Assembly: GCF_004010195.1 (NCBI RefSeq)
Contig: NC_057751.1
Span: 5,667,299 to 5,731,298 of the forward strand
Length of the DNA stretch: 64,000 nucleotides
Direction of reading: 5' to 3'
Source: Chiloscyllium plagiosum
Taxonomy: Eukaryota
The position numbers were made by a program, and so were the translations under genes. This document shows positions 61,055 to 62,843 of this stretch, piece by piece. Under the pieces are notes generated by a model. That model was given only the letters and a program-made list of their open reading frames with translations, did no database searches and was not told the origin of the DNA. Each line of letters starts with the position of its first letter. Position 1 is the first letter of the stretch.

Positions 61055-61591
61055 TTATACCGGCCGATCCACCGCATATTGACAGGGACTGAGATTGGAA
61101 GCTGGATTCTGCATGGGCCCGTAGCTGAAGGTAGAAGAGTGATGCTTGGCTCTAAGTCTGAGGCTGGCCAAGCTGGTGTTGCAGTTATCCCGGTACACGT
61201 ACGGGCTGGAGCTAGACCCGTAAGGGCAGGGAGTGGCAGATACCGCCGAATTCAGCGAAGGGCTGCCCAGGCTGTTCAAATTATTCAAGCTTGAGCCCGG
61301 TAAAGCGGAAGGGACCATAGTCATTGAAGGCAGTGAGCTGGGCGTGGAGAACATGCTTTGCGACGATAGAGAGTTGACGTTCATGGAGTTGAAGAAAGAG
61401 AAGCTCTTGGCCGAAATCGGGGTGGTGGCGAGTCCTTTGGTGGCCCAGTTATTGTACGAATAGCCGGAGTACACGTCCTCATAGGGCTGCACAAGCCCAT
61501 TGAAGGGCGCTCCAAAACCTCCCTTGCAGAGTTCTGCTTGCTGGTGGCGTTCCCGTTTCCTCCATTTCGCCCTGCGATTTTTGAACCACAC
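61055..61591 (-). CDS. Pitx-family gene, last coding exon (helix 3 end, OAR domain, stop)
   Basis: Acceptor tttggttAG|GTG. Encodes [26 protein letters not shown]...[21 protein letters not shown]...[13 protein letters not shown] followed by TAA (61055-61057). In frame with the homeobox exon, and most like Pitx3. Confidence 0.96.
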
Positions 61592-62634
61592 CTAACCAAA
61601 CCGAAAAGTATAACAGTTTAATTGTTAGCTGGCAAGTATTGGATGACGAGAAGATGGAATGCAAGTTTGCGGTTCTTTTTACATATTATATATATATAAA
61701 ACAAACTGGTAGCATCAAATAGGGTCCATCTGAGAAACCAAACTTGTTTTTTCTCTATAATGTAGGCAGCGGGATTCCGATTGACGGTTTGCTGCCGAGT
61801 ATATTTATAGTCTAACTTGTGACACAAGAACTCAAAACACACTCTATAAAAACGAGTGAGTGTTCCAACACAAACACAAGCAATAACATTTAATAAAGCC
61901 TGGAGGATCCCATATGTCTCGTTAACCCTTTTCCTCGACCTTCAATAATTTGTGCACATACTCGCTCAGATTTCTCTCGTCCTGCAAACTCTGTGGGTGA
62001 ATGTGCAATAGTACTTGTGTATGCGCCCAAAGATACATGCAAGCCCGCATATTCAGCATGTCCTGAATATACCCCGGGCTGATTGTGCCCGAGCAGTTCC
62101 ATCTTTCCGATTTTCGGAACCATTTTATGTCCTTTCGCCGACTGAACGGGTTTGTTCAACTAGTGGAAGAAAACTAGAGGTGAACCTGATATCGGGTTCG
62201 ATACAAATCTGCAATTCAAGGCGTCCAGACATTCCCACCCCTGAATGCCTCTGAGTGAGATAAATACACACTTCGCGGGAATGAGATCTGAGTACTAGAG
62301 TCCGAGCTACCCTGAACTATCCTGTCTTAACTGACTGTATTTTACAACACTGGTCCCTGAAATGGTAGTTGCCGTTACTACCTGGCTGCTCACTTGTGTT
62401 GGAAATTCCTGCCAAAACTTTTATTCGAGTAAAGTTTCCTTGTTTTGAAAACAATTTTATCCATTCAAGATACGAAGCTTAAAAAAAGCATCTCGCTGTT
62501 AAGTAAGGAGATTTAAAATCTTAAATTCGAATCAGCTTCGCATTTGCGCCGGTACTTTTCATTTGGGGGTCGAAAAATTAATGCGCAGTTAACATTGGAA
62601 CGTTTTCTTTTTCTCGCCGACCTGCAATATTTAC

Positions 62635-62843
62635 CCTGATCCTGGCCTCGGTGAGGTTTGTCCACACTGCTATTTCTTCCCGGGTGGACATGTCTGGGTA
62701 GCGGTTCCTCTGGAAAGTCGCCTCCAGTTCCTGCAGCTGTTGGCTGGTAAAGTGAGTCCTCTGCCTCCGCTGTTTCTTTTTAGCCGAACTGTCTTCGGAA
62801 CCCGAGTCGTCGGACTTACATCGCCGAAGCTGCTCGCTCTCTC
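62635..62843 (-). CDS. Pitx-family paired-like (K50) homeobox gene, homeobox exon
   Basis: Acceptor ...ccccggcAG|GA (phase 1). Encodes [69 protein letters not shown]. Donor AGG|GTAAAT lies at the conserved intron position in helix 3. Upstream exons are not in the window. Paralog identity is uncertain, so no symbol is given. Confidence 0.96.

What the first reader, a model, noticed from the sequence alone, without database searches (positions are those of the whole stretch)
61055..62843. Pitx3-like gene beside AAK1: candidate fourth vertebrate Pitx ohnolog
Seen: an intact Pitx gene whose nearest visible downstream gene is AAK1, ~43 kb away on the same strand, with no other exons recognised between them. 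Established: human PITX1/2/3 lie on chr5/4/10, PITX3 is flanked by ELOVL3 (3') and GBF1 (5'), and AAK1 is on 2p13, part of the chr2p/8p member of the 4/5/10/(8+2) paralogon, which has no Pitx in mammals. In FGFR1-4 the chr8 and chr10 copies are sisters, so a fourth Pitx should look most like Pitx3, as this one does. Inference: this is a whole-genome-duplication paralog retained in cartilaginous fishes and lost in mammals, and it is easily mis-annotated as Pitx3. Extra Pitx paralogs may already have been named in fishes, so novelty needs checking.
Basis: partly seen in the sequence, partly recalled or inferred. Interest (0 to 1): 0.88.

Follow-up and report, generated by a model that had tools for sequence, protein, structure and literature searches.

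The report
Fourth Pitx gene beside AAK1
This shark window holds most of a fourth member of the Pitx developmental gene family, an ancient sister of Pitx3 that sharks, rays, chimaeras, the coelacanth, turtles and lizards still carry, and that databases label only as Pitx3-like or Pitx2-like.

Summary
Window 61055-61591 and 62635-62843 (minus strand) are the last two coding exons of a Pitx gene with a K50 homeodomain and an OAR motif. AAK1 exon 1 lies 42.7 kb downstream on the same strand, and only transposon fragments lie between. The first coding exons lie just past the window end; with them the gene reads as an intact 282-aa protein. One spliced transcript contig was found.

The genome has four Pitx loci: C42 (this one), C38, C1 and C14. 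C38 is the true Pitx3: it sits head to head with a GBF1-type gene and groups with bony-vertebrate Pitx3. The window gene belongs to a separate clade (100/96) of seven cartilaginous fishes, the coelacanth, turtles and squamates. That clade is sister to Pitx3 (95/92). A shark-only duplication is rejected (p-AU 0.025).

C42 carries ANTXR-type, NFU1 and AAK1 genes, and C38 carries paralogues of all three, as a block duplication would leave. Some paralogon tests were negative (SFXN, adducin). Nine literature searches found no description of a fourth vertebrate Pitx. Absence from mammals, birds, amphibians and teleosts is suggested, not proven.

The parts
61055..61591 (-). Last coding exon of the fourth Pitx gene: C-terminal 14 residues of the homeodomain (with K50), OAR motif, stop codon at 61055-61057
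   Evidence: Open frame of 178 codons. OAR PF03826 27.1 bits. 98% identical to Stegostoma 'pituitary homeobox 3-like'. All 9 listed differences in a related species' contigs are synonymous.
61592..62634 (-). Intron of 1043 nt at homeodomain position 46/47, GT-AG
   Evidence: Removed exactly in a contig of run X1 (joint 61589 to 62633, skips 1043, cut +2). Splice signals checked.
62635..62843 (-). Homeodomain exon (homeodomain residues 1-46 and the acidic/serine-rich stretch before it)
   Evidence: PF00046 56.4 bits, profile positions 1-47 of 57. AG acceptor and GT donor.
60084..61054 (-). 3' untranslated region, about 970 nt
   Evidence: The spliced contig of run X1 (record 5, 2113 nt, depth 48) covers 60084-61589 without a break.
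62844..64000 (-). Part of the intron between the first coding exon (outside the window, window-equivalent 64945-65047) and the homeodomain exon
   Evidence: tblastn with the shark orthologues places exon 1b at C42:5732243-5732345 and alternative exon 1a at C42:5737954-5738077.
18111..18314 (-). Coding part of AAK1 exon 1 (start codon at 18312-18314, long glycine run); the rest of AAK1 runs off the low end of the window
   Evidence: Translation. PDB AAK1 chains E 2.2e-6, no BMP2K chain among the 60 shown. Kinase exons at C42:5634042-5662306, AAK1 104.8 bits against BMP2K 91.3.
18315..60083 (.). Intergenic stretch of about 42 kb with transposon fragments and an assembly gap (551 N at 32339-32889)
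   Evidence: 50 frames of 95 aa or more; 4 hit Pfam, all transposon domains. N run found.

Best explanation
The window carries the last two coding exons of a fourth Pitx paralogue of jawed vertebrates, here called the N-type. It is neither Pitx1, Pitx2 nor Pitx3. It is the sister of Pitx3 and was already a separate gene before cartilaginous and bony vertebrates split. It most likely arose in the second of the two early vertebrate genome duplications.

It encodes a 282-aa (or 289-aa) paired-like homeodomain transcription factor. All the DNA-reading residues of the family are kept, including lysine 50, and the C-terminal OAR motif is present. By inference it should bind the same bicoid-type sites as other Pitx proteins.

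It has two alternative first coding exons. It sits in a gene-poor stretch beside AAK1, is spliced and transcribed, and is under strong purifying selection in sharks and rays.

Shown here: four loci, the clade structure, the neighbours, the splicing and the sequence constraint. Inferred: origin by whole-genome duplication, DNA-binding specificity, a developmental role, and loss in mammals and other lineages.
For: 1. Four loci. A search of the window's 3.56-Gb genome with the last exon finds C42 (100%), C38 (76%), C1 (75%) and C14 (68%). All four have open frames. The fifth hit is a different homeobox gene.

2. Identity of the other three. C1 groups with Pitx2 and has an ELO gene 0.5 Mb away. 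C14 groups with Pitx1. C38 groups with Pitx3 and lies head to head with a gene that has Sec7-like_HUS (C38:26595171-26596695) and Sec7 (26615733-26618660) domains.

3. Rooted tree of 55 rows and 238 columns, with five invertebrate outgroups.
- N clade 100/96, made of (Latimeria + 5 reptiles, 99/93) and (Callorhinchus + 7 elasmobranch rows including the window, 99/92).
- Pitx3 clade 95/86, with own C38 and Hemitrygon sister to bony-vertebrate Pitx3.
- N + Pitx3 95/92.
- The same clades appear in the 45-row and 61-row trees.

4. Forcing cartilaginous-fish N and cartilaginous-fish Pitx3 into one clade costs 22.2 log-likelihood units, p-AU 0.025.

5. Shared derived characters. The motif RIRVWFKNRR occurs in 32 of 362 stored proteins. 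All 32 are from cartilaginous fishes, Latimeria, turtles or squamates. An N-terminal LAGTP(N/S)-type motif is shared by shark, chimaera, coelacanth and squamate proteins.

6. Neighbours on C42: Anth_Ig at 5.336 Mb, Nfu_N at 5.53 Mb, AAK1 at 5.63-5.685 Mb, Pitx at 5.728-5.738 Mb.

7. Paralogous block on C38: annexins at 8.54-8.62 Mb, an intact AAK1-leaning kinase exon at 8.707 Mb (AAK1 88.8 bits against BMP2K 80.9), Nfu_N at 8.745 Mb, and the only other Anth_Ig hit in the genome at 9.09 Mb.

8. C1 has a BMP2K-leaning exon beside annexins. All four Pitx-bearing contigs carry annexins.

9. Intact gene model with GT-AG introns. One spliced contig exists in one run.

10. Constraint. The last exon is 85-98% identical across 6 elasmobranch species. 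All 9 listed differences in a related species are synonymous.
Against: 1. Paralogon tests were patchy. SFXN genes lie on C22 (three loci), C14 and C1, with none on C38 or C42. Aldolase_II (adducin-type) hits lie on C42, C22, C16 and C2, not C38, and which of them is ADD2 was not resolved.

2. ELO genes on C38 lie 9-12 Mb from Pitx3, and an RHD gene lies 25 Mb away. The full ELOVL3-PITX3-GBF1-NFKB2 arrangement is therefore not kept.

3. The tree does not recover Pitx1 + Pitx2 as a pair, and it leaves lamprey and hagfish genes unresolved. The symmetrical two-round pattern is not shown.

4. The AU result is only p 0.025, and the tested group was named after a first tree had been seen.

5. The own-genome rows cover only the 178-aa last exon.

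6. An assembly gap lies between Pitx and AAK1, and I could not check the join with reads.

7. Transcription rests on one contig of one run whose RNA label is a guess. About 2% of a single-cell RNA run of the same species label gave no reads on the gene.

8. The human gene order used for comparison is recalled, not taken from a call.
Confidence: 0.85

Rival explanations
1. The gene is ancient and sister to Pitx3, but it arose by a small-scale duplication and transposition before the jawed-vertebrate radiation, not by whole-genome duplication.
For: SFXN and adducin-type families do not pair C38 with C42. The tree does not show the symmetrical ((1,2),(3,N)) shape. On C38 the AAK1-like block lies 17.6 Mb from Pitx3, whereas on C42 AAK1 is 43 kb from Pitx.
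Against: At least four gene families (Pitx, AAK1-type kinase, Nfu_N, Anth_Ig), plus annexins, are doubled between C38 and C42. The genome's only two Anth_Ig hits and its four Nfu_N matches (two loci) lie only on these two contigs. A single-gene copy would not bring these along.
Confidence: 0.1
2. The gene is a duplicate of Pitx3 specific to cartilaginous fishes. The coelacanth and reptile 'Pitx3-like' genes are unrelated fast-evolving copies drawn to it by long-branch attraction.
For: Reptile N-type branches are long (0.13-0.45). Databases name the genes Pitx3-like or Pitx2-like.
Against: Holding cartilaginous-fish N with cartilaginous-fish Pitx3 is rejected (p-AU 0.025). The short-branched Latimeria protein joins the clade (100/96). 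Motifs are shared outside the alignment core: RIR in the homeodomain and the LAGTP-type N-terminus. Tiliqua has both a Pitx3 and an N-type protein.
Confidence: 0.03
3. The window gene is the true Pitx3, moved next to AAK1 by rearrangement or a misjoin across the N gap, and the C38 gene is the extra copy.
For: 551 N lie between Pitx and AAK1. The last exon ends with the same residues as Pitx3 proteins.
Against: C38, not C42, groups with Pitx3 of rays, ray-finned fishes and tetrapods (95/86) and has the GBF1-type neighbour. C42 carries 2p13-type markers below Pitx (annexin at 2.97 Mb; ANTXR-type, NFU1 and AAK1 at 5.3-5.7 Mb) and an adducin-type gene above it (16.9 Mb).
Confidence: 0.02

Closest known systems
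Pitx3 (pituitary homeobox 3)
   Same: K50 paired-like homeodomain, OAR motif, the same homeodomain intron position, and the same last residues as Pitx3 proteins. It is the sister clade in the tree (95/92). The last exon is 76% identical to the genome's own Pitx3.
   Different: It is a separate locus on another chromosome-scale contig, with AAK1/NFU1 rather than a GBF1-type neighbour. It forms its own clade, with members in species that also have Pitx3, such as Tiliqua and this shark. It has V45I in the homeodomain and a different N-terminus.
Pitx2, with its alternative N-terminal isoforms
   Same: Two alternative first coding exons give different N-termini on a common homeodomain and C-terminus. 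That Pitx2 does the same is recalled, and is also stated in the abstract of PMC2330153 seen in the listing.
   Different: 75% identity in the last exon. The genome's Pitx2 is on C1 near an ELO gene.
Other 'hidden' fourth ohnologues kept outside mammals, e.g. nkx2.5l of the NK4 family
   Same: This is a fourth two-round paralogue of a developmental homeobox family kept only in some lineages. Passages of PMC12019251 describe nkx2.3 and nkx2.6/7 as second-round sisters.
   Different: It is a different gene family. No paper naming a fourth Pitx was found.

Membership tests
Pitx family (paired-like, bicoid-class homeobox genes) | Homeodomain with lysine at position 50 | tested here: met
   Pfam Homeodomain 56.4 bits on exon 2. 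The last exon begins [10 protein letters not shown], which places K at homeodomain position 50.
Pitx family (paired-like, bicoid-class homeobox genes) | C-terminal OAR motif | tested here: met
   PF03826 27.1 bits, cut-off 20.1, residues 135-152 of the last exon.
Pitx family (paired-like, bicoid-class homeobox genes) | Closest relatives are Pitx proteins along the whole length | tested here: met
   542 hits. All named proteins among the 120 listed are Pitx, apart from a few 'hypothetical' or 'unnamed' records. Groups inside vertebrate Pitx against 5 invertebrate Pitx outgroups (97/94).
Pitx3 orthology group | Groups with Pitx3 of other vertebrates to the exclusion of other paralogues | tested here: not met
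   The Pitx3 clade (95/86) holds own C38 and Hemitrygon, not the window gene.
Pitx3 orthology group | GBF1 as head-to-head neighbour (human arrangement, recalled) | tested here: not met
   Within the 93 kb searched upstream of the window gene, none of 125 frames of 95 aa or more hits a Sec7 or HUS domain. The GBF1-type gene is on C38.
Fourth Pitx ohnologue (proposed group) | A clade of its own with both cartilaginous-fish and bony-vertebrate members | tested here: met
   N clade 100/96 and 99/92 in the 61-row tree.
Fourth Pitx ohnologue (proposed group) | Lies in a chromosome block paralogous to those of Pitx1-3 | tested here: inconclusive
   For: Pitx, AAK1-type, Nfu_N, Anth_Ig and annexin genes are doubled between C42 and C38; a BMP2K-type exon and annexins lie on C1; annexins lie on C14. 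Against: SFXN and adducin-type genes do not follow the pattern.
Fourth Pitx ohnologue (proposed group) | AAK1 linkage conserved in the other species that have the gene | not testable with these tools
   No tool here gives the gene neighbourhoods of other vertebrate genomes.

The most novel reading that the evidence does not exclude
Jawed vertebrates began with four Pitx genes, not three. The fourth (a 'Pitx4', sister of Pitx3, linked to AAK1) has gone unnamed in the literature. It survives as an intact, constrained, expressed gene in sharks, rays, chimaeras, the coelacanth, turtles, lizards and snakes, and perhaps in very divergent form in the bowfin. It may carry part of the ancestral Pitx3-type role (eye, midbrain or muscle development) that mammals, birds, frogs and teleosts must cover with three genes.
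Probability: 0.5. Interest if true: 0.7.

Novelty: new member of a known kind. Interest (0 to 1): 0.62.

Why it matters
Pitx genes are among the most studied developmental regulators. As I recall, their known roles cover hind-limb and pelvic-fin identity, left-right asymmetry, and pituitary, lens and dopamine-neuron development. Comparative work assumes three vertebrate paralogues.

A fourth gene, present in common evo-devo models (catshark, skate, turtles, lizards) and labelled inconsistently as Pitx3-like or Pitx2-like, can confuse orthology calls, probe design and knock-out interpretation. It also gives a natural test of how functions were shared out after the genome duplications.

The C38/C42 comparison further suggests that sharks keep extra AAK1-type and NFU1-type paralogues, which would help to reconstruct this paralogon.

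Tried and rejected
1. Literature. Nine searches were run.
- 'Pitx4' gave 4 papers, seen only as a listing, with titles unrelated to gene-family evolution.
- 'Pitx3-like' gave none.
- I read passages around 'pitx' in five papers. None mentions a fourth paralogue.
- Subscription journals and supplements were not searched.

2. Earlier findings of this scan: nothing by word, sequence or place.

3. Sturgeon protein P0124 scored high to the coelacanth gene, but it is a mis-built Pitx3 model with a repeated exon. Rejected as an orthologue.

4. 'ERH' after the homeodomain is not a marker of the new group. It occurs in 72 of 362 stored proteins, including many invertebrate Pitx.

5. Bowfin protein P0267 has an N-type-like N-terminus but a very long branch (1.46). 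Its best placement is sister to the N clade at only 35/55, and placement with Pitx3 is not rejected (p-AU 0.40). Left open.

6. SFXN, adducin-type, ELO and RHD families as paralogon or synteny markers gave negative or ambiguous results.

7. No RNA holder is listed on record for the stretch.

8. Pfam scans of frames of 95 aa or more, covering the 42 kb between AAK1 and Pitx and the 93 kb upstream of Pitx, found only transposon domains. The upstream neighbour gene was therefore not identified.

Full report
**What is in the window**

On the minus strand, 61055-61591 is an open 178-codon exon that ends in a stop. It begins in the third helix of a homeodomain. A second exon at 62635-62843 encodes the first 46 homeodomain residues.

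Pfam finds Homeodomain (56.4 bits, profile positions 1-47 of 57) and OAR (27.1 bits, cut-off 20.1) on the two exons. The intron is 1043 nt with GT-AG ends and sits at the usual homeodomain 46/47 position.

The gene is not whole inside the window. tblastn with shark orthologues finds a first coding exon at C42:5732243-5732345, about 1 kb past the window end. An alternative first exon lies at C42:5737954-5738077. With exon 1b the model is 282 aa with no internal stop, and 277 of 282 residues match the Stegostoma tigrinum model P0004. With exon 1a it is 289 aa.

**AAK1 and the space between**

A frame at 18099-18476 (minus) holds a start codon at 18312-18314, followed by a long glycine run.
- It matches PDB AAK1 chains (E 2.2e-6), and no BMP2K chain is among the 60 rows shown.
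- Five kinase-domain exons lie further down the same strand at C42:5634042-5662306. One of them scores 104.8 bits to AAK1 against 91.3 to BMP2K.
- The Pitx stop codon is 42.7 kb from the AAK1 start.
- Of 50 frames of 95 aa or more between them, 4 hit Pfam, all with transposon domains.
- A run of 551 N lies at 32339-32889.
- In the 93 kb upstream of Pitx, 125 such frames gave only LINE-type domains. Pitx therefore sits in a gene-poor stretch.

**Is it expressed and constrained?**

One contig of run X1 (2113 nt, depth 48) lies on 60084-61589 and then on 62633-62845. It skips exactly the intron and runs on for about 395 nt that do not lie on the stretch, presumably a first exon. This is a spliced transcript with a 3' untranslated region of about 970 nt. 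The run's RNA label is a guess, and this is one contig of one run.

Contigs of a related species (runs X4, X5) cover exons and introns alike. The 9 differences listed inside the last exon are all synonymous third-position changes. Another 94 differences were not shown by the tool. Across 6 elasmobranch species the last exon is 85-98% identical.

**How many Pitx genes does this genome have?**

Searching the window's own 3.56-Gb assembly with the last exon gives four full-length open matches:

| Contig | Position | Identity to the window exon |
|---|---|---|
| C42 (this gene) | 5.73 Mb | 100% |
| C38 | 26.36 Mb | 76% |
| C1 | 135.72 Mb | 75% |
| C14 | 30.82 Mb | 68% |

A fifth, weak hit is a different homeobox gene with a glutamine at position 50.

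**Which one is Pitx3?**

C38 is. Upstream of its Pitx gene, in divergent orientation, lie Sec7-like_HUS exons (26595171-26596695) followed by Sec7 exons (26615733-26618660). That is the domain order of a large ArfGEF. The two strongest HUS+Sec7 genes are elsewhere (C4, C20), so this weaker one is the GBF1-type gene.

Not everything matches the human arrangement, which I recall rather than take from a call. ELO genes on C38 are 9-12 Mb away, and an RHD gene is 25 Mb away.

C1 has an ELO gene 0.5 Mb from its Pitx, as I recall for PITX2 and ELOVL6.

**Relatives elsewhere**

The best protein hits to the window exon are all named 'pituitary homeobox 3-like':

| Species | Identity |
|---|---|
| Stegostoma | 98% |
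| Cetorhinus | 96% |
| Heptranchias | 95% |
| Hypanus | 93% |
| Leucoraja | 91% |
| Scyliorhinus | 85% |
| Callorhinchus | 74% |

Latimeria has a 'pituitary homeobox 3-like' protein with the same peculiarities. Searching with it, with a profile of the group, and against cluster representatives added the following:
- Turtles (8): Dermochelys, Terrapene, Chrysemys, Emys, Malaclemys, Trachemys, Gopherus, Natator.
- Squamates (12): Tiliqua, Lerista, Elgaria, Podarcis, Sceloporus, Pogona, Vipera, Gekko, Hemicordylus, Pseudonaja, Phrynosoma, Thamnophis.

These are variously named Pitx3-like or Pitx2-like.

The motif RIRVWFKNRR (isoleucine at homeodomain position 45) occurs in 32 of 362 stored proteins, all from these taxa. 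An N-terminal LAGTP(N/S)-type motif is shared from shark to lizard.

No bird, crocodilian, mammal, amphibian, lungfish or teleost protein of this type appeared among the 120 rows listed in each of three searches or among the 150 representatives. The lists are truncated and reptile members score below Pitx2 and Pitx3, so absence is not established.

A bowfin protein (P0267, named Pitx3) has an N-type-like N-terminus but a very long branch. Its best place is sister to the new clade at only 35/55, and placement with Pitx3 is not rejected (p-AU 0.40).

**Trees**

The main tree has 55 rows and 238 columns, uses LG+C20+F+G4, and is rooted on starfish, annelid, millipede and two tunicate Pitx proteins.
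- The new clade has 100/96 support. It splits into (Latimeria + reptiles, 99/93) and (Callorhinchus + elasmobranchs including the window, 99/92), as the species tree predicts.
- Pitx3 has 95/86, with the shark C38 gene and a stingray Pitx3 sister to bony-vertebrate Pitx3.
- The two clades are sisters at 95/92.
- Pitx1 has 100/98.
- Pitx2 and the lamprey and hagfish genes are unresolved.
- The 45-row and 61-row trees agree.

Forcing the cartilaginous-fish members of both clades together, as a shark-lineage duplication would require, costs 22.2 log-likelihood units, p-AU 0.025. I named this group after seeing the first tree, so the p-value should be read with that in mind.

**Is it a genome-duplication paralogue?**

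*For.* C42 reads Anth_Ig (5.336 Mb), Nfu_N (5.53 Mb), AAK1 (5.63-5.685 Mb), Pitx (5.73 Mb). This is the order ANTXR1, NFU1, AAK1 that I recall for human 2p13.

C38 holds a matching set:
- annexins at 8.54-8.62 Mb;
- an intact kinase exon at 8.707 Mb that leans to AAK1 (88.8 bits against 80.9);
- Nfu_N at 8.745 Mb;
- the genome's only other Anth_Ig hit, at 9.09 Mb.

C1 has a BMP2K-leaning exon (95.2 against 92.7 bits) beside annexins at 126.3-126.45 Mb. All four Pitx contigs carry annexins.

A published parallel exists in the NK4 family. There nkx2.3 and nkx2.6/7 are described as second-round sisters and a fourth gene, nkx2.5l, is kept in some lineages (PMC12019251, passages seen).

*Against.* SFXN genes are on C22, C14 and C1 only. 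Adducin-type genes are on C42, C22, C16 and C2 but not C38. The tree does not pair Pitx1 with Pitx2.

I put whole-genome duplication at about 0.7-0.75 and another ancient duplication at about 0.1.

**How it probably works**

The protein keeps every homeodomain residue shared by Pitx1-3, apart from V45I, including lysine 50, and it keeps the OAR motif. By inference it is a sequence-specific transcription factor for the same bicoid-type sites.

It has two N-terminal isoforms from alternative first exons. It also has a gene-desert setting of the kind usual for developmental regulators with distant enhancers. Its tissue and stage of action are unknown.

**Novelty**

Gene models exist in public databases under makeshift names. 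Nine full-text searches found no paper that recognises a fourth vertebrate Pitx group. Subscription journals and supplements were not covered.

I class it as a new member of a known kind. It is of real but moderate interest, because 'hidden' fourth ohnologues of developmental genes are a known phenomenon.

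Noticed in passing
G000:C38:8707051-8707273 (locus L026:52-273, + strand): An intact exon of a third AAK1/BMP2K-family kinase on the Pitx3 chromosome, 70% identical to the AAK1 exon. It scores 88.8 bits to AAK1 against 80.9 to BMP2K. As I recall, humans have only two such genes, so this may be another ohnologue kept in sharks.
   Followed up: partly
G000:C38:8744215-8746162 and C38:9090531-9090644: A second Nfu_N (NFU1-type) match, whose alignments run through stop codons, and the genome's only other Anth_Ig (ANTXR-type) match. 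Both lie beside the third AAK1-type exon, forming a block paralogous to C42:5.33-5.69 Mb. I did not check whether the NFU1-type copy is a gene or a relic.
   Followed up: partly
window 60068-60115: A piece of about 45 nt at the far end of the Pitx 3' untranslated region is matched by hundreds of contigs and reads in all four runs (summed depth 65,000-167,000), with loose ends on both sides. It is a very abundant short repeat.
   Followed up: no
window 61411-61556: One contig of run X1 (depth 35) skips 144 nt inside the last exon, with CG..CG ends. This may be an assembly artefact or a rare in-frame variant.
   Followed up: no
window 43148-49077: A cluster of transposon fragments: endonuclease and reverse-transcriptase pieces on both strands, and a GIY-YIG domain frame of the kind found in Penelope-like elements (that link is recalled).
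   Followed up: partly
window 17395-18476: Just inside and before AAK1 exon 1 there are long frames made of a repeated unit of about 20 residues (17395-18065), a run of alternating Cys-Val codons, and a long glycine run in the AAK1 coding sequence. GC rises to 0.54 in 18001-20000.
   Followed up: no
proteins P0244 (Synaphobranchus) and P0270 (Albula): Two elopomorph fishes have an extra, fast-evolving Pitx1-type protein. The two pair at 100/98 inside the Pitx1 clade, perhaps a teleost-duplication copy kept only there.
   Followed up: partly
protein P0267 (Amia ocellicauda, named Pitx3 isoform X2): A very divergent bowfin Pitx with an N-terminus like the new group. It could be a ray-finned-fish survivor of the fourth gene or a fast-evolving Pitx3. 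The trees cannot tell.
   Followed up: partly
protein P0124 (Acipenser sinensis): A public gene model of sturgeon Pitx3 contains the last-exon sequence twice in tandem. This inflates its scores in searches.
   Followed up: yes
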